Positions 6,524 to 27,457 of a stretch of 34,494 bases of DNA are shown piece after piece (position 1 is the first letter of the stretch; each line of letters opens with the position of its first letter). The notes beneath the pieces were generated by a model. The model was not told the DNA's origin. It worked only from the letters and a program-made list of their open reading frames with translations, and searched no databases. Where the stretch lies: positions 1-34,494 of the forward strand of contig JBFMED010000073.1 in NCBI GenBank assembly GCA_040753475.1. Reading direction: 5' to 3'. The stretch comes from a bacterium (lineage in GTDB: Bacteria > UBA9089 > UBA9088). Both the position numbers and the translations under genes were made by a program.

Positions 6524-6617
6524 TTGGATTTTAGGAATTTAGGATTTATAAATTTAGGATTTAGAAATTTTTTTCAATTGTTTTAAATCTTAAATCCTAA
6601 ATCTTAAATCCTAAATT
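6524..6617. repeat. Palindromic array of 7-8 nt tandem repeats (TAGGATT/AGGATTT on the left, TAAATCY on the right)
   Basis: Left arm 6526-6570 and right arm 6584-6617 are imperfect reverse complements built from heptamers. Preceded by TATTTAGCTA (6507-6516). Ends 6 nt before the thrS ATG. Confidence 0.8.
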
Positions 6618-6623
6618 ACTTAT

Positions 6624-8324
6624 ATGGAAGCATTTTGGCATTCTACCTCGCATATAATGGCATCTGCTGTTTGCAAGTGTTTCAAGGATGTGAAGCTTGG
6701 GATTGGTCCTGCTATAGCAGAGGGATTTTACTATGATTTTAGCTGCTCAATCACAGAGGATGACCTTGTAAAAATAGAGGAGGAAATGAGAAAAATTATA
6801 AAGGAAAACCTTCATTTTGAAAAAATTACAATGACAAAGGATGAGGCAAAAAAATATCTTTTAAAGGAGGGTCAGAGCTATAAGCTTGAAATTTTGGATG
6901 AAATCAAAGACAATGAGGTTTCATTCTTCCAAAATGGCGATTTTATTGACCTTTGCAAGGGTCCACATATTGAAAGAACAGGCGAAATTAAGACATTTAA
7001 GCTCTTAAGGCTGGCAGGTGCATATTGGAGGGGCAACGAGAAAAACCCAATGCTTACAAGGATATATGGCATCTCATTCAAAAGCAAAAAAGAGTTGGAT
7101 GACTATCTTGCAAAGATTGAGGAAGCAAAGAAAAGGGACCACAGGGTTTTGGGAGAGCAATTGGGCTTATTTAACATCTATGATGAGGTGGGAGGTGGTC
7201 TTATCTTCTGGCATCCAAAGGGAAATATTTTAAGGGATGAGATTATCAATTTTCTAAAGAGAGAGCATAGAAGGAGGGGGTATCTTGAGCTTGCAACACC
7301 ACACATTGGAAAGAAATCCCTCTGGGAGACATCTGGTCATTGCGATTATTACAAGGAGAATATGTATTTTATAAACAAAGATGATGAAGATTATGTCCTA
7401 AAGCCGATGAATTGCCCCTGCCATATTATGGTTTATAAAAGCACAATAAGGAGCTATTCTGAGCTTCCCTTAAGGTTCTTTGAGCTTGGCACGGTTTATA
7501 GATATGAAAGGTCTGGTGTCCTTCATGGGCTTTTAAGGGTTCGTGGATTTACTCAGGATGATGCTCATATATTTTGTAGAAAGGATCAACTTAAGGATGA
7601 AATAAAGGGTGTTTGCAAATTTGCCTTTGATATGCTCTCCTCTTTTGGCTTTAAGGAATATAATCTCTACCTTTCAACTAAACCAGAAAAATATGTTGGC
7701 TCTGATGAGATATGGGAGATGGCAACCAATGCATTAATGGATGTTTTGCAGGAGGAGGGTCTTAATTGGACAGTTGATGAGGGAGAGGGTGTATTTTATG
7801 GACCAAAGATTGACATAAAGCTCAAAGATGCACTGGGAAGGGCCTGGCAGGGCCCTACAATTCAGGTTGATTTTAATCTACCAGAGAGGTTTGATATTTC
7901 TTATATTGGAAACGATGGAGAAAAGCATCAGCCTGTTATGATACACAGGGTTGTTTTAGGAAGCCTTGAGAGGTTTATTGGTGCCTTAATTGAGCATTAT
8001 GCAGGAAAGCTTCCCTTATGGCTTTCTCCAATTCAAACAAGGATATTGCCAATCACAGACAATCAGCTTGATTATGCAGAAAAAATAGAAAAAATGCTTT
8101 TGGATTGTAAGATAAGGGCAGAAATAGACATTAGATCTGAAAGGCTACAAAGAAAGATAAAGGATGCCCATAATATGAAGATTCCATACCTTGCAATTGT
8201 TGGAAACAAAGAAAGTGAAGAGGAAAAGATAAGCTTAAGGCACAGGGAAAAGGGAGATATCGGCTCTTTTTCAATCCCTGATTTTATAGCCCTGCTTAAA
8301 AAAGAGATTAAAGAGAAGGGATGA
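6624..8324 (+). CDS. thrS: Threonine--tRNA ligase, lacking the N-terminal TGS domain
   Basis: WHSTSH (HxxxH editing-domain motif) at residues 5-10, NCPCH, YRYERSGVLHGLLRVRGFTQDDAH (class II motif 2), GPKID, HRVVLGSLERF (motif 3), C-terminal anticodon-binding region. An in-frame stop lies 9 nt upstream of the ATG. Confidence 0.9.
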   Translation: MEAFWHSTSHIMASAVCKCFKDVKLGIGPAIAEGFYYDFSCSITEDDLVKIEEEMRKIIKENLHFEKITMTKDEAKKYLLKEGQSYKLEILDEIKDNEVSFFQNGDFIDLCKGPHIERTGEIKTFKLLRLAGAYWRGNEKNPMLTRIYGISFKSKKELDDYLAKIEEAKKRDHRVLGEQLGLFNIYDEVGGGLIFWHPKGNILRDEIINFLKREHRRRGYLELATPHIGKKSLWETSGHCDYYKENMYFINKDDEDYVLKPMNCPCHIMVYKSTIRSYSELPLRFFELGTVYRYERSGVLHGLLRVRGFTQDDAHIFCRKDQLKDEIKGVCKFAFDMLSSFGFKEYNLYLSTKPEKYVGSDEIWEMATNALMDVLQEEGLNWTVDEGEGVFYGPKIDIKLKDALGRAWQGPTIQVDFNLPERFDISYIGNDGEKHQPVMIHRVVLGSLERFIGALIEHYAGKLPLWLSPIQTRILPITDNQLDYAEKIEKMLLDCKIRAEIDIRSERLQRKIKDAHNMKIPYLAIVGNKESEEEKISLRHREKGDIGSFSIPDFIALLKKEIKEKG

Positions 8325-9847: not shown

Positions 9848-10022
9848 AATGTCTGTATGTATTTAGCTAGGTGAGAATAAAATGGAAAATAGGCACTTAA
9901 GGCACAGAGGCACAGAGTTTATTTGTTACTTGCTTTCTTTGTGCCTTTGTCCCTTTGTTCCTTTGTGCCTGTTTACGTCCCTTTGTGCCTAGCTATAGGG
10001 TAGCTAAACACATACAATGTCT
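9848..10022. mobile_element. MITE-like non-autonomous element with 15-bp terminal inverted repeats, internal inverted octamer arrays and a 7-bp flanking direct repeat
   Basis: AATGTCT | GTATGTATTTAGCTA (9855-9869) ... TAGCTAAACACATAC (10001-10015) | AATGTCT. Inside are AGGCACWK octamers (9891-9917) and the complementary CTTTGTSC octamers (9937-9990). No ORF. Confidence 0.6.
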
Positions 10023-13481: not shown

Positions 13482-13859
13482 ATGCAATACTCAGAGAAGG
13501 TAATGGAGCATTTTAGAAACCCAAGGAATGTTGGAGAGATTGAAAATGCCGATGGTGTAGGTCATGTGGGAAACCCGGTTTGCGGAGATATAATGGAGCT
13601 TTATATCAAGGTAGAACAGGGTATAATAAAAGATGCAAAATTTAAGACATTTGGCTGTGGTGCGGCTATTGCTACAAGCTCAATGGTTACAGAGCTTGTA
13701 AAAGGAAAGACAATAAGCGAGGCTCTACAAATATCAGATCAGGCTGTAGCAGAAGCATTAGGGGGCCTTCCACCTATCAAAATGCATTGCTCCCTCTTGG
13801 CAGAAGAAGCCCTTAAAGGAGCAATCAATGATTATCTTAAGAAACGGGATTCGGGATAA
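13482..13859 (+). CDS. iscU: Fe-S cluster assembly scaffold IscU/NifU N-terminal type
   Basis: NPVCGD, FGCGAAIATSS and MHCSLLAEEAL provide the three conserved Cys contexts. Confidence 0.9.
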   Translation: MQYSEKVMEHFRNPRNVGEIENADGVGHVGNPVCGDIMELYIKVEQGIIKDAKFKTFGCGAAIATSSMVTELVKGKTISEALQISDQAVAEALGGLPPIKMHCSLLAEEALKGAINDYLKKRDSG

Positions 13860-14666: not shown

Positions 14667-15059
14667 TTAGTCAACAACTAATATCCCAGATGCGGCAAGA
14701 AGGAGGATAATAGCCTGTAATAAGGAAAGAAAGAAATAGATTTTATCCTTCTTTTTATAAAATATGGGAATAATCCCAAGAAAGCAGATAATTGTAATGC
14801 CCGAGAGAAAGGCAATCCCTATAAAGTTAAGGAAATCTCCATTACTAAGCAAGCTAATCCATAACCAACCCTGTGGGATGCTGGTAGCTTTAAGGTAATC
14901 CTTTGTTGACATAGCCCAGTATTTTGGAAGGGAAGAAATAGGAATGTAGGGAGGAATGATTCCAAAGATGTAGAGGATAAAGCTTATGATTAAAATAAAA
15001 AGCCCAATCCTTGTCCCTAATTTTAAAATCTTTGCATAAAGAACCTGCTCTTCCTTCAT
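14667..15059 (-). CDS. Small integral membrane protein (possibly DUF1634-like partner of TauE)
   Basis: Three to four hydrophobic helices. The ATG at 15059 overlaps the tauE stop as ATGA, and I prefer it to the TTG at 15065 in the track. The family assignment is from memory of TauE/DUF1634 gene pairs. Confidence 0.5.
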   Translation of the reverse strand: MKEEQVLYAKILKLGTRIGLFILIISFILYIFGIIPPYIPISSLPKYWAMSTKDYLKATSIPQGWLWISLLSNGDFLNFIGIAFLSGITIICFLGIIPIFYKKKDKIYFFLSLLQAIILLLAASGILVVD

Positions 15060-15904
15060 AGCCAAATCCCAAAGCCCTTGAGCAATGACCTTATCCCTAC
15101 AAAGATAAGCAAGGCAATCACGATATAGCGAATAATCTTAGGATGTGTCTTGGTAAGAAGCCTTACCCCAACCTTTGTTCCCAGCATTACCCCAAAGATA
15201 GAGGGGATAACAATCATAGGAAAAAGACAACCCTTGGTTATATAAACCCAGGCAGCCGATGTATCGGTGATGGAAAGGAGAAAAACGCTTGTTCCTACCG
15301 CAAGCTTTAAGGGAACACCCATAATTAAATTTAAAATAGAGACATTTGCCCATCCTGCACCAATCCCAAACATCCCTGCAATAAACCCAACCATGATAAA
15401 GAGAAAAAGCCCCCTTCTCATTCGGTGTATTTTCCAGTGAATCTCCTTTTCTTTTGATTCCTCATAATAGCTACCATTTATCTTAAGCAAAGAGGGAAGA
15501 CCTCCCTCCTTTTTTACGCTAGGATACTCGGTGCTTTTTGAAAGGACAAAAATTATAGCAATTGCAATCACAAGGATTCCCAAAGAGACTTGGATAATAT
15601 TGGTTGGTAAGACAAGACCAAGCATTGCCCCAAATATGGATGAGATAGAGGCTATTAAAGCACAGGGAATAGAGAGCCTTAAGTTTGCCAAGCCCTTTTC
15701 AAGGAGCTTTGGCCCGGCAGATAAAGAGCCACAAAGGGCAAGTAATAAACCACTACAACGGATGAAATCAATATGAAAGGGAAAGAAACCGCTTACTATA
15801 GGAACGAATAAAGTTCCCCCTCCCAAACCCCCCAAAACCCCAACGATTCCAATAAAAAAGCTTACAATGAATAAAATAAGGGGATAAATCCACCAATCAA
15901 TCAT
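15056..15904 (-). CDS. tauE: TauE/SafE (TSUP, DUF81) family anion permease
   Basis: GVLGGLGGGTLFVPIV in the first half and a GIGAGW-type glycine-rich helix in the second half, giving a two-repeat TM topology. I start it at MIDWW (15904), 1 nt after the upstream stop. Confidence 0.8.
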   Translation of the reverse strand: MIDWWIYPLILFIVSFFIGIVGVLGGLGGGTLFVPIVSGFFPFHIDFIRCSGLLLALCGSLSAGPKLLEKGLANLRLSIPCALIASISSIFGAMLGLVLPTNIIQVSLGILVIAIAIIFVLSKSTEYPSVKKEGGLPSLLKINGSYYEESKEKEIHWKIHRMRRGLFLFIMVGFIAGMFGIGAGWANVSILNLIMGVPLKLAVGTSVFLLSITDTSAAWVYITKGCLFPMIVIPSIFGVMLGTKVGVRLLTKTHPKIIRYIVIALLIFVGIRSLLKGFGIWL

Positions 15905-15905
15905 T

Positions 15906-16244
15906 TTAAGGATAGTAATGGCAAGAAAAGCATAATGGCTTTGCTCCAACAAAATTATGGCATCTGTTGCAAAATTCATCCCTATTTTTATGACATTCCC
16001 TACAACTTGTCAAAGTAAAAGAGCCCCTTATTCCCTCTCTCACCACCTTATCCCTTGCCTCTTTTAATAAATTCATATGGCTTGCCCTCATAACATTTCT
16101 CTCCTTTAGACATCTTCCCTTTGGAAGCTTTATCTCTGGCTCTGGAATTTTATCACTTATTCTTCCTCCCATAACATTTAGCACGAATGGGAAAGAGAAA
16201 ACCACCAAGAAAACTATCAAACCACCTATAACTAATTTATACAT
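15906..16244 (-). CDS. DsrJ-like triheme cytochrome c, second copy
   Basis: N-terminal TM anchor and three CxxCH motifs (CRECH, CNRCH, CFSCH). 57 of 77 hand-aligned C-terminal residues are identical to dsrJ at 32807-33121. The ATG at 16244 overlaps the qmoC stop by 8 nt. Confidence 0.75.
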   Translation of the reverse strand: MYKLVIGGLIVFLVVFSFPFVLNVMGGRISDKIPEPEIKLPKGRCLKERNVMRASHMNLLKEARDKVVREGIRGSFTLTSCRECHKNRDEFCNRCHNFVGAKPLCFSCHYYP

Positions 16245-17382
16245 CCCTATTATATTGTTTGGCATAGATAATGGCGATTGTGCGATAGACAAAATGGGCA
16301 AACTTTGAATATGGTGCGTAACATAAGAGAAAGAATACAGAGAGAAGGTGGATAAAATATAAGGGATAGGAAAGAATGGGTATATTCGCCCATCTTGTAA
16401 CCATTGTCAATGCTCCACAGGCAATTATTATATACAAAATAGCGATCAAAAGCCAATCAAAGTATCCACCAAGGCTATCCTTCTGGTTAATTCTGTTAAA
16501 GATTACAAGGTTTAGCCCAATGAACATAAGGATTACACCGCTATAGCCTATAAAGTTCATAATATAGGTAAGGGAATAGGAAAAACCTTGAGAAATTAGC
16601 TCTATGGGATAGAAAAACAAGAACAAATACAAATTATGGAATAGGCATATGGGATAAAACCCCTTTTTTTGCAATATCTCTAAATAAAAAATCCCACTTC
16701 CTGCTGTAATTATGAGAAGGACAAAGCCATAGAATATACATAGATGGGCATAATATCTTAATTTGTTTGTATTGCACTTTTTGAATTTGGAGTGAAGCAA
16801 TATCTCAGTTATTGTAGAGAAAATAGCCTTTATAAGACTTCCCTTTTCACCTTCCATCTTAACGCCACCTAAAAACCTCTTTATTCCTATAATAAACGAA
16901 ACAAGGCTAAAGCCAATCCCTATTGTAAAGAGTCCGCTAAGATGTAAGGGAGAAATAAAATCAGAAAAGAGAATCCCATCTTTCACATTTCTTGTCAAGG
17001 CTAATAAGATTATTAAGGGAAATCCAATAATAAGGGGAAGATACCTTGCTTTGTTGAGAAAATTTGCCAGGAATTTTGGAAAGGAATAGCTAATAATCGC
17101 AAGCCTCCTTATGGCAGAGATAACCTCACCTGGCTTTACTCCCCTTGGGCAATAGGCGGTGCAATCACCACATTGATGGCAGAGCCAGATGTCTAAATTA
17201 TTAAAGAGCTTGTCGGAAAGACCCCATTGGGCAAAGAAAATCTCCTTTCTGGGAAATGGCTTGTTTTCTGGCGAGATATTGCAAACAGCGGAACAGGTTG
17301 CACACTGAAAGCACTTCTTTAAAGAGCCTCCACCCGATGAAATTATCTCATTTATAAGCTTAATATCAGGTTTTATAATCAT
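16237..17382 (-). CDS. qmoC: Quinone-interacting membrane-bound oxidoreductase subunit QmoC (HdrC-like Fe-S domain fused to an HdrE-like cytochrome b)
   Basis: CFQCATCSAVCN and CHQCGDCTAYCP, followed by at least 5 TM helices. Positioned after qmoAB. Confidence 0.85.
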   Translation of the reverse strand: MIIKPDIKLINEIISSGGGSLKKCFQCATCSAVCNISPENKPFPRKEIFFAQWGLSDKLFNNLDIWLCHQCGDCTAYCPRGVKPGEVISAIRRLAIISYSFPKFLANFLNKARYLPLIIGFPLIILLALTRNVKDGILFSDFISPLHLSGLFTIGIGFSLVSFIIGIKRFLGGVKMEGEKGSLIKAIFSTITEILLHSKFKKCNTNKLRYYAHLCIFYGFVLLIITAGSGIFYLEILQKKGFYPICLFHNLYLFLFFYPIELISQGFSYSLTYIMNFIGYSGVILMFIGLNLVIFNRINQKDSLGGYFDWLLIAILYIIIACGALTMVTRWANIPILSYPLYFIHLLSVFFLLCYAPYSKFAHFVYRTIAIIYAKQYNRDV

Positions 17383-17751
17383 TTAATCGCCTCTTGCAAC
17401 CATCCGGATAAAATCGGTTGAGGTAAATATACCAAGCCTATCTTTACCCTCGATAACAATTCTGTGGAATCCATTCCTGTGCATATAGATTGCTGCCTTT
17501 TTTGAATCCATCTTTCCTGCCTCATCTATTGAAACTGTCTCAAGCTGCCTCTCTTTGCAGAATTCTGTTAATTTCTGTGGTGATTCCCTGTCATGCTCAG
17601 TGATTATCCCTATGGTATGGCCATTCCTATTTACTATCAAAAGACAACTCTTTCCTAAATCCCCCATCTTTTTTAAGGCATAGCTTACACTCTTATTCCA
17701 ATCTACCGTTAATAGACCCTCAAATGTTGCATAATCTACAATTGACTTCAT
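17383..17751 (-). CDS. Stand-alone CBS-pair domain protein
   Basis: 122 aa with two CBS-like halves (...LLIVNRNGHTIGIITEHD... and ...RIVIEGKDRLGIFTSTDFIRMV). There are no intergenic bases on either side: the qmoB stop ends at 17752 and the qmoC ATG is at 17382. AAGGGG SD lies inside the qmoB 3' end. Confidence 0.75.
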   Translation of the reverse strand: MKSIVDYATFEGLLTVDWNKSVSYALKKMGDLGKSCLLIVNRNGHTIGIITEHDRESPQKLTEFCKERQLETVSIDEAGKMDSKKAAIYMHRNGFHRIVIEGKDRLGIFTSTDFIRMVARGD

Positions 17752-19980
17752 CTAAAACCCCTTATATGGATTAGGACCAATCGCCTTTACCTTTTCAATA
17801 AAGCTTTCTATCATCTCTGGTATCTTGGGATAGTCTGCAATAGAGGTCTCCACCAGAGAAACCCTCTCTGCCTCAAGCCTAAGACGGTCAAGCGTTTCTT
17901 GGACTTTAGAAAGTCTATACTTTGCCAACTCGCTCCCCTTGATAAAATGGCATTGATAATCCTCGCCCAGCTTACAACCAATGAGCAAGATTCCGTCAAT
18001 TCCCTTTGACAGGGCATCGGTTACCCAGACAAGGTTCAGGCAACCAAGGCACCTTATGGGGATAAACCTTACCAAAGGGCTTATATTTTTTCGCATAATC
18101 CCTATGGTATCCAAAGCAGGATAGGCATCGTTTTCACAGGCAAAGCATAAGAATCGCATCTGGTTTTCATCCTCTGGAACATAAATAGATTTTATCATTG
18201 AGCTTATAATATCAATACTAAAGTCCTTAAATGAGACAATCCTTTCTGGGCAGGCACCCAGGCAGGTTCCGCACCTCCTGCACCTATTTGGCTTAAAGTA
18301 GGGAATCCCCTTCTCGTCCTCATCAATTGCTCCAAATGGACATTCATCGGTGCATCGCTTGCAAGCTGTGCACCTTTGCAGGAATGCCTCAGGATAGGTC
18401 ATATCCCATGCCCTTGGATGAACCGCAATCCCTTTTGCTACCTGTTCAATGCATTGTATGGCCTTTAAAGCTGCACCACCTGCATCTTCTATACATTCAC
18501 CTATATTCATTGGTGTCCTTACACATCCGGTAGAATAGACCCCGGTTCTCCTTGTCTCATAGGGAAAGCAGATAAAATTGGAATCCACAAACCCCAAGGC
18601 TTCTTCAAAAAGGGGAACCTCAGGTCCCTGCCGATATTTTAGGTTTAAGATAAAATCAGGTTTTTTTGTTTCATTTATATAGCTTGCCTTTGCCTCATCT
18701 CCCTTTAAGGCTGCCTTTGATAGACCATCAAGATAGCAAAGTGCATCCTTTGTTGAGGGAAGCATCCCTATGGCAAGGACAACAAGGTCTCCCTCAACCT
18801 CAATTACCTCCCCTAAAAGTGTATTCTCTGCCTCAAGGATGAGGCTTTCCTTCTCTTTCTTTATTGCCTTAACATCTGCCTTTGTCAATAAAATCCCAAT
18901 ATCCTCCTGGGTCTTCTTGTAAAAAAGCTCATATTGGGCGGGTGTTCTCATATCTTTATAAAAAATATAGGCAATTGAATTTTCATCCTTTTCCCTGATA
19001 TATTTTGCCTGTTTTAAAGATGTTAAGCAGCAATATGATGAGCAATAGGGTAGATGCTCTTTATCCCTAGAGCCAGCACATTGGATAAAGGCAACCCTTT
19101 TTACCGCCTTTCCATCCTTTCTTAAGAGCTTACCCTGCTTTGCCATCTCCTCAAACTCAATGTTTGTAATTACATCAGGATATATTCCATAGCCAAGATG
19201 AGAAAGCTTTGATGCATCATAGGGCTTAAATCCCGAGGCTAAAATAACAGCCCCTACTTTTCTTCTTATTTCCTCATCCTTTCTTTTTATTGAAACATCA
19301 AATACCCCAGGTTGTCCTTCAATGCTTTCTATCTCTGAATTTATTAAGACCTCAATATTTGGATGCTCATTAACTTTTTTTATCTTCTCAAAAACAATTG
19401 GTTCTCTTATTTCCTCATAGGGATATTCTGTGGGAACTTGCTTGTATAGCCTTGCTGAATACCCACCAAGGTTGTTTTCTTTTTCCACAAGGATTGTCTT
19501 ATACCCACAATCTGCCGTCTCAAGGCTGGCGGTTAATCCACTTATCCCACCACCCACAACCAGAATAGCCCTTTCTATATTTTCTTCTATATATGGCTCG
19601 GGAATATTCTGCTTAATTGCCTTAGTGATTCCCATTTTAAGATAGTCTTCGGCAATTAGCTGGGTATCTTCTCTCTTTGGTGGCTGGCAAAAAACACAAA
19701 GCTCCCTTATATTCACCCGCTCAAGGATACAATTTGGGAAATTAAACACCTCGGACTTTACCCTTCCTGAACATCCTGCAATAACCAATGTGTTTATCCC
19801 CTCCTTCTTTATATCCTCCTTTATTAAGGCAATCCCTTCATTGCATAGGACAGGGGATAGCTTAAATGATGTAATAGGAAGCTTTGTCTCCTTTGAGGCT
19901 TTCTCTATCAGCCTTTCTAAATTCAAGGATTGCTCTATACTACACCCCTTACAGATATAAATGCCTATCTTCTTATCCAT
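17752..19980 (-). CDS. qmoB: QmoB (HdrA-like flavoprotein with ferredoxin and MvhD-like domains)
   Basis: VVGGGISGLTAS FAD motif, CTACKRCTDECP and CRRCGTCLGACP, 742 aa. Overlaps the qmoA 3' end by 16 nt. Confidence 0.9.
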   Translation of the reverse strand: MDKKIGIYICKGCSIEQSLNLERLIEKASKETKLPITSFKLSPVLCNEGIALIKEDIKKEGINTLVIAGCSGRVKSEVFNFPNCILERVNIRELCVFCQPPKREDTQLIAEDYLKMGITKAIKQNIPEPYIEENIERAILVVGGGISGLTASLETADCGYKTILVEKENNLGGYSARLYKQVPTEYPYEEIREPIVFEKIKKVNEHPNIEVLINSEIESIEGQPGVFDVSIKRKDEEIRRKVGAVILASGFKPYDASKLSHLGYGIYPDVITNIEFEEMAKQGKLLRKDGKAVKRVAFIQCAGSRDKEHLPYCSSYCCLTSLKQAKYIREKDENSIAYIFYKDMRTPAQYELFYKKTQEDIGILLTKADVKAIKKEKESLILEAENTLLGEVIEVEGDLVVLAIGMLPSTKDALCYLDGLSKAALKGDEAKASYINETKKPDFILNLKYRQGPEVPLFEEALGFVDSNFICFPYETRRTGVYSTGCVRTPMNIGECIEDAGGAALKAIQCIEQVAKGIAVHPRAWDMTYPEAFLQRCTACKRCTDECPFGAIDEDEKGIPYFKPNRCRRCGTCLGACPERIVSFKDFSIDIISSMIKSIYVPEDENQMRFLCFACENDAYPALDTIGIMRKNISPLVRFIPIRCLGCLNLVWVTDALSKGIDGILLIGCKLGEDYQCHFIKGSELAKYRLSKVQETLDRLRLEAERVSLVETSIADYPKIPEMIESFIEKVKAIGPNPYKGF

Positions 19981-21239
19981 TGTATTGCTTTCATCGCAGA
20001 GGAGGTTGCCTTTCTGGTTGCCCTGGTAACATCCATCGGATTTTCGGCGACACCTGCAGCATATACACCCTTTTTTAGGGATGAATGGATAATAAACCCA
20101 TCATTATTACAAGAAAATATTCCCATTCCATCCTGACCCCTGACTCCTGACCCCTGACTCCTGACTCCTTTAATTGATGGCTGCATTCCCACCGCAAGCA
20201 CTGCCATATCCACCTTTACCTTTACCTTACTTCCTACTTCCACATCCTCTGCCTCTAAAATCACATCGCCTGTTTTATCCTCGCTAATCTTTCCCACCTT
20301 TCCCTTTATTAGATGGACATTTTTTTCATCCTCTATCTTGTTGTAAAACCTCTCATAGAATATACCGGGTGTCCTAATGTCTATATAAAATAGATAAATT
20401 TCTGCATTAGGGTTTTGCTCCTTGATGTAGGTAATCTGCTTTAAGGATGCCATACAGCAGATGTATGAGCAATAGGGAAGGTGGTTTTCATCCCTAGAGC
20501 CAGCACATTGGACAAAGGCTATTCTTTCAGGGGGCTTTCCATCTGATGGCCTTGTTATCTTGCCCTGAGTTGGGCCATTAAAAGATGCAATGCGTTCCAT
20601 CATCATATTGGTAATAACATTCTTTATCCTTCCAAAGCCAAGGTTCTCTATTTTTTCTGCCTCATAAGGCTTCCAGCCGGTTGCCCAGATAATCGAGGAT
20701 ACCTCTATTTCAATGGTTTTTGGTTGCATATCAAGCTCAATAGCAGAATATTTGCAAGCAGAAACACATTCTCCACATCTTGAGCAAACCTTATCATCAA
20801 TCACATACCTAAGGGGAAACGCCTGGTTGTAGGGGAGGTGTATGGCTTTTGTCTTGTTTAGAGAAAGGTTAAAATCATCCTCTCTTTCAACCGGGCAGAG
20901 ACTGACACACTCACCACACCCTGTGCAATTATCCTTTACATACCTTGGGTTTATTCTAATGGCTACATTAAAACCATTGCCTTTTTCCTTAATTTCTTCT
21001 ACCTCTGCCAAGGTCAAAAATGATATATTTGGATTAGCCCTCATCCTTCTTAAATTTATCTCAACACCGCAAGCAGGAGGGCAGAGCTTGGGAAAATATT
21101 TATTAAGCTGAACAACCCTTCCTCCAAGATATGGATTCTTGTCAAGAATTAAAGCCTGATAGCCGGTTTCCCCTATCTCAATGGCAGAGGTTATCCCACT
21201 AATCCCTCCGCCTACAACCAGAACATCCTTTTTTAGCAT
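19965..21239 (-). CDS. qmoA: QmoA (HdrA-like flavoprotein)
   Basis: MLKKDVLVVGGGISGITSA, CTGCGECVSLCP and CSRCGECVSACK. I place the start at 21239 (AGGA SD upstream) rather than 21293, which would overlap the upstream gene. Confidence 0.9.
   Translation of the reverse strand: MLKKDVLVVGGGISGITSAIEIGETGYQALILDKNPYLGGRVVQLNKYFPKLCPPACGVEINLRRMRANPNISFLTLAEVEEIKEKGNGFNVAIRINPRYVKDNCTGCGECVSLCPVEREDDFNLSLNKTKAIHLPYNQAFPLRYVIDDKVCSRCGECVSACKYSAIELDMQPKTIEIEVSSIIWATGWKPYEAEKIENLGFGRIKNVITNMMMERIASFNGPTQGKITRPSDGKPPERIAFVQCAGSRDENHLPYCSYICCMASLKQITYIKEQNPNAEIYLFYIDIRTPGIFYERFYNKIEDEKNVHLIKGKVGKISEDKTGDVILEAEDVEVGSKVKVKVDMAVLAVGMQPSIKGVRSQGSGVRGQDGMGIFSCNNDGFIIHSSLKKGVYAAGVAENPMDVTRATRKATSSAMKAIQWIRR
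20132..20168 (-). repeat. Five tandem CCTGACY heptamers inside the qmoA coding sequence
   Basis: Plus strand reads cctgacc cctgact cctgacc cctgact cctgact cc, translated as GVRSQGSGVRGQ in QmoA. Confidence 0.85.
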
Positions 21240-21249
21240 TCCATTCCTT

Positions 21250-22071
21250 TCATAAATGGATTCCCTTTTGTCTTGCCCTTCTGGAAAGTTCATAAGAGCG
21301 ATAGAGCTTTATGTGTGGATGTTCTTTTTTAAGATGTGCCTCTACATTAGGATGGATTGAATAACAAAGGATGAGGGGAAATACATCGGCTTTTAAGTAA
21401 TTTCTTGCCCTTTCAATAACCTTTGAAAAATCTTTAATATCATTTTTTCCTATGCTTGCTTTAGATTCTCCAATGATGTATATTTTATTTCCATTCTGCC
21501 TTGCCTCGGCATAGATATTTATCTCATCCTCACCACCCTCGGGATAGATAAAGAATCTCCTCTCAAATTCTTTTTCTATCTCAATTCCAAAATCCTTCTT
21601 TAACACATAAGGAAAGATGGAGTAGTATTTTTCCTCAAGCTCATAGCCAATGGTATTTGATATGCCACCTAATCTTTGGTCTGTTTTTTCCTGGGCAATG
21701 GCAAGCTTTTCTAACCTCTGTTCTGTTCTTTTCTGTGCCTCGGCAAGCTCTTCTACCCTTTGCTCTGTCCTTTTCTGTGCCTCGGCAAGCTCTTCTACCC
21801 TTTGCTCTGTCCTTTTCTGTGCCTCGGCAAGCTCTTCTACCCTTTGCTCTGTCCTTTTCTGTGCCTCTGCAAGCTCTTGCAAAGCTTTATCAAGCCTGCC
21901 TACCTCCTTCTGGGTTTCTTTCTGGGCCTCGGTAAGCTCTTTCTGGGCAATGGCAAGCTTCCTTACCTCATTGGTAAGGAGGTTAAACTCTTCCCTATCT
22001 ACCCTTATACCCTTTGTTTTTTCCTCTACAATGGTTTCTATTGTTTTATAAAGCTCAAGATCTATAGCCAT
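21250..22071 (-). CDS. Coiled-coil protein with a C-terminal PD-(D/E)xK-like (restriction-endonuclease-fold) domain, function unknown
   Basis: [14 protein letters not shown] repeats form a long heptad-rich helix. The C-terminus has GGEDEINIY...[14 protein letters not shown] (D...ExK). I start it at MAIDLE (22071), because the track's TTG at 22107 is part of a TTGACA -35 box. Confidence 0.6.
21739..21864 (-). repeat. Three perfect 42-bp tandem repeats, flanked by degenerate copies
   Basis: ctcggcaagctcttctaccctttgctctgtccttttctgtgc occurs three times with no mismatch. It encodes [14 protein letters not shown]. Confidence 0.95.
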
Positions 22072-22077
22072 ATTTTT

Positions 22078-22107
22078 ATTATAACCTTTAGGCCAATCTT
22101 CTGTCAA
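22078..22107 (-). promoter_or_regulatory. Consensus sigma70 promoter TTGACA-N18-TATAAT, with the -10 ending 6 nt before the ATG at 22071
   Basis: Minus strand reads TTGACAgaagattggcctaaaggtTATAATaaaaatATG. Confidence 0.55.
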
Positions 22108-22195
22108 TCTTATTACGGAATTTTTATCTGATATTTCAAGATTTCTTCATCCGTTTTTTCTCTAATAATTTTGGCATTGGCTTCCTTTATAAATC

Positions 22196-24136
22196 CTAAA
22201 CCACCAGCTGCTTATACTCTCTTTTAAAGATCTCAAACTTTCCGGTTTGGCTATTGTATTTGGAATTGACAAAGCATTTCCAATTACTATCATCAATCTT
22301 GGGAAAATCTGCTCTATAATAATAGCCAGGATACCTTGTCTCCTCCCGAAAGAGCATATGCCTGATATGAGCCTCAGCGGTTAAGATTCTATGCCTGTTT
22401 TCCCAGGCCCTCATCAGCTCATGGAGGTTTTCTGCCGCTAATCTATCTGAATCCTCCTTTGCCATTTCCAATAGCTCTAAGCCCTTTTCCATCATTGTTC
22501 TGCTCGTGATATACCAGGTGCTTACCCCTCCCGCATACTCATCCATAATCTTCATCACCCTTGGCTGTAATTGCTTTGGTCTAATATAATTGGGGTTTAT
22601 ATCAGCCGCGGTAGTATAGCCCTTGTATTTCTCATAAAGCTCAAAGGGAAGGCAGATCTCTTTGGCAAATTCCTCAATTGGCTTGGTGATGGTCGGGGTA
22701 AACCCGGAATGGTCAAGACAAAAGGCAACCATTGCTTTTGCCGCAATCCTTCCATCGGCATGTGAGCCAGATGAGAATTTATGACCCGAGGCACCTACGC
22801 CATCGCCGGCGGTGAATAGCCCCTTAACGGTTGTCATTCTATTATAGCCCCATTGCCATTCAGGGGGTGCGATGTCAGATGGCCCACTTACCCAAAAGCC
22901 TGAACAAGCGGCATGTGAACCAATAAAGTATGGCTCGGTAGGCATCATCTCAGATGGCTTTTCCTCTGGAGCAATATTATTGGTTGCCCAAACACCTGCT
23001 TGGGCAATGGTCATATCCAGAAAATCCTCCCAGGCGGCATTTTCCATCTCCTTTGCCAATTTTGCATCCTTTGCCCTCATTGCTTGAATAGCATCCTGTG
23101 TATGCATAAAAACAGGACCCTTTCCTGCCTTTAGCTCCTCAATCATTTGGTGGTTCCTTAAGCAGGTGGGAACCGGCTTTATATCGCAATATGGGGCATA
23201 TTGCTTGATTACCGGGGATTGGGTATAATCCTCACCTAAAGCATTGGTTGCCTTGCATTTTAAATAAAGGAAGAATGTTCCCACCGGGCCATAGCCATCC
23301 TTAAACCTGGTTGGAACAAATACATTCTCCATCATAGTAAGCTCTGCCCCTACCAGAAGCCCCATTGTGGTAGTTGAGCTTGAATTCCATACTGGATACC
23401 AGGTTCTTCCTAAACCCTCATCGGTTGCCCTAGGTCTATAGGTATTTACGCCGCCACCACAGGCATTAAGCACAACCTTTGCCTTAAAGAGGTAGCACTT
23501 GTAATCCCTGACAGAAAAACCAACCGCGCCAGCAATCCGATTATCCTCCTTCTCATCAAGGATGAGATGGGTAATAAAGACCCTCTCGTATAAATTTTGT
23601 GCCATCCCTGTCTTTTCTCGGTTGTATTCCAATACCTTCTTTGCTGCCTCGGCTACAATAACTTTGTATGACTCTCCGCTAATCATTGCCTGCCATCTGC
23701 CTGAGCGAACACACCTTGCCCCATCCCCAAGTTTTTTCTCCTCCTCTCCCTCGTTTTTCCAGAGGGGAAGCCCCCATTCGTCAAAGAGATAGACAGAATC
23801 ATCAACATGCCTTCCGATATCATAGACAATGTCCTCCCTGATTATACCCATTAGGTCTCCACGCACATAATTGACATAGTCTTCTACTGTATTTTCACCC
23901 ACATTTAAGCCAATGTAGGTGTTTATGGCAGAAAGACCCATTGCCACAGTGCCTGAGCGGTCTAATGCCGCCTTATCCACTAAGGTTACCTTTATTCCCT
24001 TTGGTGTTGCCCATCTGCAAGCCTCATAAGCTGCACCACAATTAGCCATTCCACCACCGACAAGCAGAATATCTGTCTCTATTGTTTCCATTTCTGGTGG
24101 CTTGGCATAACTAAATATATTAACCTCTTTTTCCAT
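22196..24136 (-). CDS. aprA: Adenylylsulfate (APS) reductase alpha subunit
   Basis: ILLVGGGMANCGAA FAD motif, 646 aa, immediately downstream of aprB. Confidence 0.92.
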   Translation of the reverse strand: MEKEVNIFSYAKPPEMETIETDILLVGGGMANCGAAYEACRWATPKGIKVTLVDKAALDRSGTVAMGLSAINTYIGLNVGENTVEDYVNYVRGDLMGIIREDIVYDIGRHVDDSVYLFDEWGLPLWKNEGEEEKKLGDGARCVRSGRWQAMISGESYKVIVAEAAKKVLEYNREKTGMAQNLYERVFITHLILDEKEDNRIAGAVGFSVRDYKCYLFKAKVVLNACGGGVNTYRPRATDEGLGRTWYPVWNSSSTTTMGLLVGAELTMMENVFVPTRFKDGYGPVGTFFLYLKCKATNALGEDYTQSPVIKQYAPYCDIKPVPTCLRNHQMIEELKAGKGPVFMHTQDAIQAMRAKDAKLAKEMENAAWEDFLDMTIAQAGVWATNNIAPEEKPSEMMPTEPYFIGSHAACSGFWVSGPSDIAPPEWQWGYNRMTTVKGLFTAGDGVGASGHKFSSGSHADGRIAAKAMVAFCLDHSGFTPTITKPIEEFAKEICLPFELYEKYKGYTTAADINPNYIRPKQLQPRVMKIMDEYAGGVSTWYITSRTMMEKGLELLEMAKEDSDRLAAENLHELMRAWENRHRILTAEAHIRHMLFREETRYPGYYYRADFPKIDDSNWKCFVNSKYNSQTGKFEIFKREYKQLVV

Positions 24137-24139
24137 AAT

Positions 24140-24580
24140 TTACCTCCCTATTGTTGGCAGGGTTTCACCCCTGGCTTGCTGGGTAAAGAACCCAGGCTCT
24201 TTTATCCTTGCGTAATCAGGCTCGCCCTTTCCTCCATAAGGGTCAATTGAGCCCTCTGGCGTTGTCCTTATCGGGAATTTAAACCGCTTAAGCCTTCCAT
24301 CCCTGAACTTAATCGTCCACATTATGGAATCAGAGCCCCTTAAGGGAATAACGCTTCCACCCAAGGGGTTAAAATCCGTATAACCCCTTACCTCTATAGC
24401 CTGCTGGGGGCATATCTTAACACAATTGTAGCACTCCCAACATTGATTAGGCTCCTGGTTATGAGCCTTCATCTTCTCTCTATCCAAGACCAAAAGGTCA
24501 TTTGGGCAGATATACTGACAGGCAGTCTTATCCTGTCCCTTACAACCATCGCATTTCTCAGCGATTACAAAACTTGGCAT
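24140..24580 (-). CDS. aprB: APS reductase beta subunit
   Basis: MPSFVIAEKCDGCKG...CQYICP and CWECYNCVKICP. I start it at 24580 (AAGGGGG SD), downstream of the sat stop. Confidence 0.9.
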   Translation of the reverse strand: MPSFVIAEKCDGCKGQDKTACQYICPNDLLVLDREKMKAHNQEPNQCWECYNCVKICPQQAIEVRGYTDFNPLGGSVIPLRGSDSIMWTIKFRDGRLKRFKFPIRTTPEGSIDPYGGKGEPDYARIKEPGFFTQQARGETLPTIGR

Positions 24581-24596
24581 TTTTTTTACCCCCTTT

Positions 24597-25814
24597 TCAT
24601 ATTTTTCCTTCTGCATGCTTATGCAACTCTATTTCTATTTTTTTATCACAGGATTTATAATATTCCTTTAATATTTCCAATACCTCGGGTCTACTAAAAT
24701 GCTCGGGAATCTCTTTATCCTCAGACAATAGCTTTCTCAGCATTGTTCCACTCAAGATAACCCGGTCGGAAACATCGTGTGGACAGGTCTTGGTTGTCGC
24801 CATACCATCGCATTTCTTACAATAAAAGGTTATGTCAATCTTTAATGGCTTTATCTCCATCGCATCAGCAGGTATCTCATCAAATATCGTTTGTGCATCA
24901 TAAGGGCCATAGTAATTGCCAACCCCGGCATGGTCTCGGCCAACAATAAGATAGGAACATCCATAGTTCTGTCTAAATAAGGCATGCAGCAATGCCTCCC
25001 TTGGACCACCATATCTCATCTCCATCGGATAGCCACCCTGAATGCAGGTATCCTTAACAAAATAGTCTTCAACCAAAGCCTCAATTGCCTTAACCCTTAC
25101 CTCTGCGGGAATATCACCCTCCTTTAGTTTTCCCAACAATTGATGGATGAATACACCATCAGAGATCTCAATGGCTATCTTTGCCAGATATTCATGGGCT
25201 CTGTGCATCGGGTTTCTTAATTGCAATGCCGCTACCTTGCTCCAGCCCTTTTCTTCAAAGATTTCCCTTGCCTCACTAGGACGCAGGTAAAGCCCTTTGT
25301 AAGCCTTGGGATAATAGCTTTCGGAAAGAACCCTTACCCTACCTGCAAGATTTACCTCCTCCTGTGATAAAACCTTATGCACACCAGGATGGTTAGGGTC
25401 ATTTGTTTTAAAGACCTCCTTACACTCATATTCCTTATCTATGGTATACTTTTCCTCTATCTTCATAGTTCCCATAAGCTCACCTGTCTCTTCATCAATT
25501 AGAGAGACCTCTTCTTTTATTTTTAGGCTATCAGCTTGACCTTTTGTGGTGGAAAGGGTTATGGGAATTGGCCAGAATAGACCATCCTTAAGCTTCATAT
25601 CTTTGCAGACGGCCTTCCAATCATTCTGGCCCATAAACCCATCTAAGGGTGTAAATGCACCAATCCCGAGCATAATCAAGTCTGATGTCTCTCTGGATGT
25701 CATCTTAACCTGGGTTAGAGAAGATGCCTTCTTAAGCTCTTCCTTAAGCTCCTCACCCTGTAATAATAATGGCTTTAATTCTCTCCTGCCATGTGGTTTT
25801 GGTAATTTTGACAT
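24597..25814 (-). CDS. sat: Sulfate adenylyltransferase (ATP sulfurylase)
   Basis: [11 protein letters not shown] and [16 protein letters not shown] upstream. Confidence 0.92.
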
Positions 25815-25825
25815 ATCTTTACCTC

Positions 25826-27453
<1,628 letters not shown>

Positions 27454-27457
<4 letters not shown>

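What the first reader, a model, noticed from the sequence alone, without database searches (positions are those of the whole stretch)
20132..20168. In-frame CCTGACY heptamer array inside qmoA
Five tandem 7-nt units interrupt the QmoA coding sequence and encode GVRSQGSGVRGQ, in a region after the LAVGMQPS strand that looks like a loop. The same heptamer in the same orientation occurs in the dsrL-like gene 6 kb away. A 7-nt unit keeps the frame only in multiples of three, so gaining or losing a single unit would knock out qmoA. This could act as a slippage-driven on/off switch, or it could be the footprint of a repeat family invading coding DNA. It is reminiscent of the heptameric STRR repeats of cyanobacteria.
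Basis: seen in the sequence. Interest (0 to 1): 0.6.

Follow-up and report, generated by a model that had tools for sequence, protein, structure and literature searches.

The report
In-frame heptamer repeat inside qmoA
The 7-base tandem repeat inside the sulfate-respiration gene qmoA is real, but it is one of about 390 such arrays in this small genome (about 100 in frame inside genes, several of them essential), so it is most likely tolerated repeat DNA of a known but unexplained class and not an on/off switch.

Summary
Window 20131-20169 holds 5.6 units of CCTGACY inside qmoA (minus strand) and encodes KGVRSQGSGVRGQD. A perfect 4.9-unit array of the same heptamer lies at 26050-26083 in the GltD/DsrL-like gene. 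Both are insertions: 15 QmoA homologs lack about 10 residues there, and the same-genus ortholog of the DsrL-like gene lacks 18.

The arrays are not gene-specific. The 1.31-Mb genome holds 393 heptamer arrays, 103 of them inside long ORFs. Hosts include ileS, murF, glmU, mfd and queA. I found no gene frameshifted at an array. Across 21 orthologous sites in two same-genus genomes, 37 of 40 length differences are multiples of 3 and none is 7 or 14. Units with stop codons on both strands are almost absent from ORFs.

The "invading repeat family" reading is therefore supported and the "slippage switch" reading is not. The class is the known heptameric long simple-sequence-repeat / STRR-like class. 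This scan has noted it before on other DNA (326 notes in at least 308 genomes).

Four features remain unexplained: a modal length of 32-34 nt, a fixed starting phase, different units at the same site in sister species, and arrays flanking all three PF05635 genes.

The parts
20131..20169 (-). Heptamer array: 5.6 units of CCTGACY on the + strand, RGTCAGG on the sense strand. It encodes KGVRSQGSGVRGQD, residues about 375-388 of QmoA.
   Evidence: TRF; sequence; translation
19965..21293 (-). qmoA (HdrA-like flavoprotein, 442 aa). It is intact and keeps all columns that are invariant among 15 homologs.
   Evidence: Pfam; homologs up to 59-60% identity named QmoA; alignment A1; HdrA structures at E=3e-91
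26050..26083 (-). Second array of the same heptamer: CTGACTC x4.9, perfect. It encodes [11 protein letters not shown] in the linker before the C-terminal ferredoxin domain.
   Evidence: TRF; sequence; translation
25826..27457 (-). GltD/DsrL-like NAD(P)/FAD oxidoreductase with a C-terminal 4Fe-4S domain (543 aa). The same-genus ortholog lacks 18 residues that include the array.
   Evidence: Pfam; ortholog alignment G002:C110
13845..13869 (+). CGGGATT x3.4 array at the 3' end of ORF 13482-13859. It is another member of the genome-wide heptamer set.
   Evidence: TRF; array list
6530..6616 (.). Two intergenic heptamer arrays (ATTTAGG-type and TAAATCY-type) in inverted orientation, just upstream of the ATG at 6624.
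   Evidence: TRF; sequence

Best explanation
The qmoA array is one copy of a genome-wide, lineage-wide family of short tandem heptanucleotide arrays: long simple-sequence repeats, STRR-like. Such arrays arise and turn over throughout the genome. The likely routes are replication slippage and/or short-tract conversion, which is inferred. They survive inside genes only where three conditions hold. The unit must be free of stop codons on the sense strand, the net length change must be a multiple of 3, and the site must be a tolerant loop, linker or terminus. In qmoA the array adds about 10 residues of Gly/Ser/Gln/Arg-rich peptide to a variable segment between the VLAxGMxP strand and the DGF hairpin. 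The enzyme is otherwise intact. The array is a tolerated passenger and has no dedicated regulatory role. A change of 1 or 2 units would truncate QmoA before its C-terminal FAD-binding motif. Such variants are expected to be removed by selection and not used as a switch. Shown: the anatomy, the insertion status, the genome-wide distribution, the stop-codon and frame filters, and the conservation and turnover across sister species. Inferred: the mutational mechanism and the neutrality.
For: The array is an insertion. Fifteen QmoA homologs have a 10-residue gap at this point. The G002 ortholog of the DsrL-like gene lacks 18 residues that include its array.

The arrays are genome-wide. Perfect arrays of at least 3 copies number 67 for period 7, against 2 for period 6 and 15 for period 8. 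There are 393 merged heptamer arrays, 103 in long ORFs and 290 outside, while long ORFs cover 86% of the genome.

There is a stop-codon filter. Of arrays whose unit is stop-free on at least one strand, 100 of 247 lie in ORFs. Of arrays with stops on both strands, 2 of 139 do (Fisher p=5e-21). In the CCTGACY family, 23 of 33 arrays lie in ORFs, all with RGTCAGG as sense.

The hosts include isoleucine-tRNA ligase, MurF, GlmU, Mfd, QueA and a PcrA/UvrD-type helicase.

No gene is broken at an array. Five candidates all resolved into adjacent genes with the array at the junction.

Twenty-one orthologous sites in same-genus genomes G001 and G002 gave 40 comparisons. Thirty-seven length differences are multiples of 3, 12 are zero, and none is 7 or 14.

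The same heptamer forms arrays in 10 of 30 related genomes and never in the reversed-pattern control. It also does so in many cyanobacteria and other phyla.

The array-encoded residues fall in a segment with pLDDT below 50.
Against: No reads could be examined, so minority length variants cannot be excluded. No close qmoA ortholog exists for comparison: the best hit is 59-60% identical, G002 lacks the gene at the orthologous locus, and G001 keeps only a 5' remnant. The age and stability of this particular array are therefore unknown.

Simple slippage does not obviously explain four observations. The modal length is 32-34 nt both in and outside ORFs. Left boundaries are phase-locked, A|AGTC in 36 of 39 arrays. 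Net insert sizes are not multiples of 21. One site carries completely different units although the flanks are 96-99% identical (C90).

Neutrality of the peptide insert is assumed. It was not tested.
Confidence: 0.75

Rival explanations
1. Contingency locus. The array is a hypermutable tract whose gain or loss of one unit switches qmoA, and hence sulfate respiration, off and on in a subpopulation.
For: The 7-nt unit is not a multiple of 3, and a change of 1 or 2 units truncates QmoA at 390-410 aa. Tandem repeats of this kind are slippage-prone in general (established knowledge). Arrays break assemblies in a relative: the G001 contig ends in the array orthologous to C100.
Against: The same arrays sit in essential single-copy genes (ileS, murF, glmU), where an off state would be lethal. 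None of about 100 coding arrays is out of frame. At orthologous sites 37 of 40 length differences are multiples of 3 and 12 are zero. The qmoA tract is short and imperfect, at 5.6 units and 87% matches. No truncated or length-variant QmoA allele appears among 5.8 billion protein clusters; the next hit is 59% identical.
Confidence: 0.07
2. A functional nucleic-acid element. The arrays would be selected as binding sites or structures, for example two- to four-tetrad G-quadruplexes on the G-rich sense strand, or sites for a repeat-binding protein. The coding copies would then modulate transcription, translation or replication locally.
For: The preferred size of about 4-5 units matches the four-unit preference reported for G-rich GGGNATC heptamers of Xanthomonas and Nostoc, which form G4 in vitro (PMC4692102). 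The left boundary is phase-locked. All three PF05635 genes are flanked by such arrays.
Against: The same length mode holds for AT-rich heptamers that cannot form G4. Units differ between sister species at the same site, which argues against a sequence-specific site. Host genes have no common function. Rehm et al. also found no regulatory role.
Confidence: 0.1
3. Assembly artefact. The array, or its unit number, was created or collapsed by a short-read assembler.
For: The modal array length of 32-34 nt is close to common k-mer sizes. The assembly is fragmented into 221 contigs. Arrays coincide with contig ends in G001.
Against: Collapse by multiples of 7 would break two thirds of coding arrays, yet none is broken. 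Arrays of 78-124 nt are assembled intact. Independent assemblies of two sister species carry arrays of identical length at the same sites. The same mode is seen in unrelated genomes. Both qmoA flanks align colinearly with homologs.
Confidence: 0.04

Closest known systems
Heptameric long simple-sequence repeats of bacteria, e.g. GGGAATC / GGGGA(C/T)T repeats of Xanthomonas and Nostoc (Rehm et al. 2015, PMC4692102). Over-representation of heptamers was first reported in 2007, as cited there.
   Same: Hundreds of dispersed tandem 7-nt arrays per genome. They are enriched in intergenic DNA. They prefer about four to five units. Many occur as inverted pairs. Length and sequence vary between relatives at the same sites. 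Host genes come from all functional classes, so phase variation was judged unlikely.
   Different: The unit is RGTCAGG, not GGGNATC. Only the GGGGTCA variant has a G-tract of 3 or more. In this genome 26% of all arrays and about 70% of this family lie inside ORFs, against 7-11% in Xanthomonas. The host is a 37% GC, roughly 1.5-Mb anaerobe carrying sulfate-reduction genes.
STRR (short tandemly repeated repetitive) heptanucleotides of heterocystous cyanobacteria. From my own knowledge, Mazel et al. 1990 list units CCCCAGT, TTGGTCA and CAACAGT.
   Same: Tandem heptamers occur in many dispersed copies. Arrays of exactly CCTGACY x4 occur in Okeania, Dolichospermum, Anabaena, Microcystis, Trichodesmium and other cyanobacteria, with the same drop in frequency beyond about 34 nt.
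   Different: The unit is not one of the three named STRR units. The organism is not a cyanobacterium. In cyanobacteria the boundary phase of the arrays differs.
TAACTGA direct repeats of marine Beggiatoaceae (MacGregor 2015, PMC4679880)
   Same: A heptamer with stop codons on one strand, so that coding copies occur only in the 'reverse' orientation and mostly at the periphery of proteins. The phylogenetic distribution is patchy and suggests horizontal spread.
   Different: The unit differs. TAACTGA arrays sit mainly just upstream of start codons, with 2-6 copies. Here a large share lies inside conserved housekeeping proteins.
Phase-variable contingency loci (simple-sequence-repeat switches of Haemophilus, Neisseria, Campylobacter)
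   Same: A tandem repeat whose unit is not a multiple of 3 lies inside a reading frame. One unit more or less destroys the product.
   Different: There are no off-state alleles. The hosts are essential and metabolic genes, not surface or restriction genes. The tract is short and imperfect. Length is conserved across species.

Membership tests
Heptameric long simple-sequence repeats (LSSR; Rehm 2015 class) | Head-to-tail repeats of a 7-nt unit, at least 2-3 units | tested here: met
   TRF reports period 7 and 5.6 copies at 20131-20169
Heptameric long simple-sequence repeats (LSSR; Rehm 2015 class) | Genome-wide over-representation of period 7 relative to neighbouring periods | tested here: met
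   67 perfect arrays of period 7, against 2 of period 6 and 15 of period 8. TRF gives 534 period-7 rows.
Heptameric long simple-sequence repeats (LSSR; Rehm 2015 class) | Bias to non-coding DNA and a preferred number of about four units | tested here: met
   290 of 393 arrays lie in the 14% of the genome outside long ORFs. The length mode is 32-34 nt. The CCTGACY sub-family itself is mostly coding, 23 of 33.
Heptameric long simple-sequence repeats (LSSR; Rehm 2015 class) | G-tract of 3 or more per unit and G-quadruplex formation | tested here: inconclusive
   The qmoA array alternates GGGGTCA and GGAGTCA, so it has only two GGGG tracts.
Cyanobacterial STRR | Unit is one of the named STRR heptamers (CCCCAGT, TTGGTCA, CAACAGT; own knowledge) | tested here: not met
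   The unit is CCTGACY / RGTCAGG
Cyanobacterial STRR | Host is a (heterocystous) cyanobacterium | tested here: not met
   The window carries sat-aprBA-qmoAB-dsr genes. The closest QmoA homologs are named Nitrospirota / Thermodesulfovibrio. The same heptamer does form arrays in many cyanobacteria.
Phase-variable contingency locus | Repeat with a unit not divisible by 3 inside an ORF or promoter | tested here: met
Phase-variable contingency locus | Tract length varies within populations, with on and off alleles both observed | tested here: not met
   No coding array is out of frame in G000. No difference of 7 or 14 nt appears in 40 ortholog comparisons.
Phase-variable contingency locus | Target genes are dispensable and environment-facing (surface, restriction-modification) | tested here: not met
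   Hosts include ileS, murF, glmU, mfd and queA
MITE of this genome (TIR GTAYGTGTTTAGCTA, 8-bp target duplication) | Terminal inverted repeats and a target-site duplication flanking the array | tested here: not met
   None of 33 CCTGACY-family arrays lies in or within 45 nt of a MITE terminus. The qmoA flanks carry no such terminus.

The most novel reading that the evidence does not exclude
The arrays may not be products of in-situ slippage. They could be discrete modules of about 32-34 nt that an active, possibly templated process writes or overwrites at permissive sites. Five observations fit this. The length mode is shared by coding and non-coding arrays. The left boundary is phase-locked (A|AGTC in 36 of 39). 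Net insert sizes are not multiples of 21. Sister species with 96-99% identical flanks carry unrelated units at the same site (GTCAGGG against the octamer GCACCAGR; TGACTCC against TTTCGGA in ileS). All three PF05635 (S23p/Avd-like four-helix-bundle) genes are bracketed by arrays of related units. If so, qmoA records one hit of a new kind of sequence-writing or conversion system shared by many phyla.
Probability: 0.15. Interest if true: 0.7.

Novelty: new member of a known kind. Interest (0 to 1): 0.33.

Why it matters
For qmoA itself the result is deflationary. The gene is intact and the repeat is a tolerated insert, so it should not be annotated as a switch or a pseudogene risk.

More broadly, this genome is a dense example of a repeat class that has lacked a mechanism since 1990. 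It has one array per 3.3 kb and a quarter of them are translated. It shows cleanly how stop-codon content and the reading frame filter where such repeats survive. It also shows that arrays at a fixed site can change unit sequence while keeping their length. That makes the origin of heptamer arrays testable by comparing sister genomes. In practice these arrays add 10-40 residue low-complexity inserts to conserved proteins and break short-read assemblies.

Tried and rejected

2. Search for genes frameshifted at arrays: five candidates (C201, C61 twice, C90, C28) all proved to be two adjacent genes with the array at the junction.

3. MITE origin: a MITE family with internal octamer arrays exists (62 paired copies), but no CCTGACY array is associated with its termini.

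4. qmoA orthologs in the same genus: G002 lacks the whole sat-apr-qmo block at the orthologous locus, and G001 keeps only a 5' remnant. The age of the qmoA array could not be set.

5. Structure: the AlphaFold2 model is mediocre (mean pLDDT 66.6). It only weakly supports a loop or disordered placement. I did not run a fold search on it.

6. Quantisation of coding-array lengths at 33+21k nt: only marginal (7 of 14 against 11 of 51, p=0.047).

7. Taxon name: the closest named relative protein is labelled only '[bacterium]'.

8. Not attempted: a metagenome-contig scan for alternative alleles. It was judged unpromising because no near-identical QmoA variant exists in the protein collection.

9. One literature search failed on a formatting limit.

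Full report
**Observation**

The window carries the described repeat. Tandem Repeats Finder reports 20131-20169 with period 7, 5.6 copies and 87% matches. Read with period 14 it gives 2.8 copies at 96%. The + strand reads TCCTGACCCCTGACTCCTGACCCCTGACTCCTGACTCCT. A perfect 4.9-copy array of CTGACTC lies at 26050-26083. A two-unit pattern, CCTGACYCCTGACY, matches 8 times in the window against 0.02 expected from dinucleotide-preserving shuffles.

The first array lies in the minus-strand ORF 19965-21293 (442 aa). Pfam finds FAD/NAD-binding and 4Fe-4S domains in it. Its homologs are named QmoA by their sources. Its best solved relatives are HdrA subunits at E=3e-91. The array is translated as KGVRSQGSGVRGQD.

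The second array lies in ORF 25826-27457, a GltD/DsrL-like flavoprotein with a C-terminal ferredoxin domain. It encodes [11 protein letters not shown].

**Are they insertions?**

Yes. I aligned the window's QmoA with 15 homologs at 56-61% identity. The window's protein has 10 extra residues between the conserved VLAxGMxP strand and the DGF motif. This segment varies in sequence in all homologs, and every column that is invariant in the family is kept. An AlphaFold2 model is only moderate (mean pLDDT 66.6). It places residues 369-391 in a stretch with pLDDT below 50 and no secondary structure.

For the DsrL-like gene a same-genus ortholog exists (G002:C110, 71% nucleotide identity). It lacks 18 residues, [18 protein letters not shown], exactly at the linker.

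**Genome-wide context**

The window is contig C73 of a 1.31-Mb assembly with 221 contigs, 37% GC and 86% estimated completeness.

- Perfect tandem arrays of at least 3 copies number 67 for period 7, against 2 for period 6 and 15 for period 8.
- TRF lists 534 period-7 rows.
- After merging there are 393 heptamer arrays of at least 3 copies, about one per 3.3 kb.
- 290 of them lie in the 14% of the genome outside long ORFs, and 103 lie inside ORFs of at least 120 codons.

The CCTGACY family (canonical units ACTCCTG and ACCCCTG) has 33 arrays, 23 of them inside ORFs. In all of these RGTCAGG is the sense strand and the product is a phase of the cyclic peptide SQ(E/G)SGVR. This orientation is forced. 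CCTGACY contains TGA, and because 7 and 3 are coprime the TGA falls in every frame within 21 nt.

More generally, 100 of 247 arrays whose unit is stop-free on at least one strand are in ORFs. Only 2 of 139 arrays with stops on both strands are (p=5e-21).

**Host genes**

Ten hosts of this heptamer family were scanned against NCBIfam. They include isoleucine-tRNA ligase, MurF, GlmU, Mfd, QueA, a PcrA/UvrD-type helicase, an acyl-CoA dehydratase activase-like protein (five arrays in one ORF) and a second GltD-like protein. One open frame joins FdhD and NadA through an array. Switching essential single-copy genes off would be lethal. This argues against a general switch function.

**Frame integrity**

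I searched for arrays at the junction of two long open frames on one strand. The five candidates were all pairs of different adjacent genes with the array between them, or forming a C-terminal tail. Examples are fmt with an acyltransferase gene, aroE with serS, and an array upstream of carA. No gene in this assembly is interrupted by an array-length frameshift.

For qmoA itself, adding or removing 1 or 2 units gives products of 390-410 aa that lack the conserved C-terminal G..G....P.DV motif. Adding or removing 3 units keeps the frame (motif).

**Comparison with sister species**

Joined flanks of 21 coding arrays were searched in the two same-genus genomes, and the orthologous junctions were extracted. 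Flank identity was 72-99%.

- There were 40 comparisons. In 37 the length difference is a multiple of 3, in 12 it is zero, and in none is it 7 or 14.
- The three exceptions (32, 20 and 8 nt) sit where my extrapolated junction is uncertain by a base or two, or at a gene junction.
- Some arrays are absent from one or both relatives. These are lineage-specific gains or losses, for example 34 against 16 nt in C118, and 33 against 6 nt in the helicase gene.
- Many arrays are present at the same site with the same length but with substituted units, for example 33/33/33 nt in mfd.
- Several sites carry a different repeat. ileS has (TGACTCC)4.7 in G000 and (TTTCGGA)5-6 in G002. C90 has GTCAGGG-type heptamers in G000 and an octamer (GCACCAGR)4 in G001, although the flanks are 96-99% identical. 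C176 has ATTCGGG in G000 and AGTCAGG in G002 at equal length.
- QueA differs by exactly 21 nt between G000 and G001.

Arrays are thus long-lived at permissive sites and always in frame, and their units turn over faster than the flanks diverge.

**Distribution**

CCTGACY x3 occurs in 10 of 30 related genomes: all three of the family, two of three further genomes of the order, and up to 64 matches in one genome of the phylum. It never occurs in the reversed-pattern control.

Many are in cyanobacteria (Okeania, Dolichospermum, Anabaena, Microcystis, Trichodesmium, Microcoleus). Others are in Gemmataceae, Acidobacteriota, Verrucomicrobiota, Chitinophagaceae and a Nitrospirota MAG. In those loci 35 of 130 arrays lie in ORFs, and frequency drops sharply beyond 34 nt.

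**Comparison with the literature**

Rehm et al. (PMC4692102) describe GGGNATC heptamers of Xanthomonas and Nostoc. [quoted passage not shown] They conclude that phase variation is unlikely and that the function is unknown.

MacGregor (PMC4679880) describes TAACTGA repeats. Their coding copies occur only in the stop-free orientation and at protein peripheries.

The present arrays fit this class. They are not one of the three named STRR units (my own knowledge of Mazel et al. 1990), and the host is not a cyanobacterium.

This scan has noted the class repeatedly: 326 notes in at least 308 genomes.

**Unexplained features**

1. Array length peaks at 32-34 nt (4.6-4.9 units) both inside and outside ORFs, with a second peak at 25-27 nt. 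A simple slippage equilibrium would more likely give a monotonic decline.
2. In G000, 36 of 39 RGTCNGG arrays are preceded by A, where about 38% is expected. Twenty-eight begin AGTC and 8 more begin GAGT, which is the same phase. The cyanobacterial and other loci show a different and weaker phase preference.
3. Net inserts are 30 nt in qmoA and 54 nt in the DsrL-like gene. Neither is a multiple of 21.
4. I followed a lead from earlier notes of this scan. All three PF05635 (23S rRNA-intervening-sequence protein, four-helix bundle) genes of G000 have 7-8-nt arrays within about 50 nt. Two are bracketed on both sides, and one set uses GGGTCAGA and CCAGACT units.
5. Coding arrays of 40 nt or more cluster weakly near 33+21k nt (p=0.047).

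**Verdict**

The repeat-family reading is supported and the switch reading is not. The most likely account is a tolerated, in-frame passenger copy of a heptameric simple-sequence-repeat family in a permissive loop of QmoA (confidence 0.75).

The rivals are a contingency switch (0.07), a functional DNA/RNA element (0.10) and an assembly artefact (0.04). The artefact reading is unlikely because frames are preserved everywhere, long arrays are assembled, and sister assemblies agree.

Noticed in passing
window 9855-10015; about 62 paired copies genome-wide: A MITE family with terminal inverted repeats GTAYGTGTTTAGCTA / TAGCTAAACACRTAC. It has 8-bp target-site duplications, a median length of 160 bp, and internal octamer arrays (AGGCACAA-type) whose copy number varies. 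150 termini were found in 1.31 Mb.
   Followed up: partly
window about 15906-25826: The block qmoC-like/qmoB/qmoA/DUF3782/aprA/aprB/sat is missing between orthologous flanking genes in same-genus genome G002 (C110). There the DsrL-like gene abuts the ortholog of window 14679-15909. G001 keeps only the DUF3782 gene and a 40-53-codon qmoA 5' remnant. The sulfate-activation/APS-reduction cluster is therefore variable within the genus.
   Followed up: partly
G000 contigs C63:3206-3704, C136:3987-4240, C220:8913-8973: All three PF05635 (S23p, four-helix-bundle) genes of the genome are flanked by tandem 7-8-nt arrays. In C136 the two arms are reverse complements (GGAGTTTT / AAACTCC). In C63 the units are GGGTCAGA and CCAGACT(C).
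   Followed up: partly
window 6530-6616: Two heptamer arrays (ATTTAGG-type and TAAATCY-type) face each other as an inverted repeat that ends 7 nt before the ATG at 6624. They could fold as a long hairpin in the leader of that gene.
   Followed up: no
G000 C162:216-1949: FdhD-like and NadA reading frames are joined into one 578-codon open frame by a 47-nt CTGACCC array. Both sister species also carry an array there (38 and 35 nt).
   Followed up: partly
G000 C61:2332-2433: A 102-nt (14.6-unit) CCTGACC array fills the aroE-serS spacer and would be translated as a roughly 35-residue C-terminal tail of shikimate dehydrogenase.
   Followed up: no
G000 C90:7900-7930 against G001:C212: With flanks 96-99% identical, G000 has 31 nt of GTCAGGG-type heptamers and G001 has 37 nt of the octamer GCACCAGR at the same codon position. 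The repeat has been replaced at a fixed site.
   Followed up: partly
window 21700-21878: A 42-nt unit repeated 4.3 times (95% matches) inside the DUF3782-like coiled-coil gene between aprA and qmoA. It is in frame, giving 14-residue repeats.
   Followed up: no
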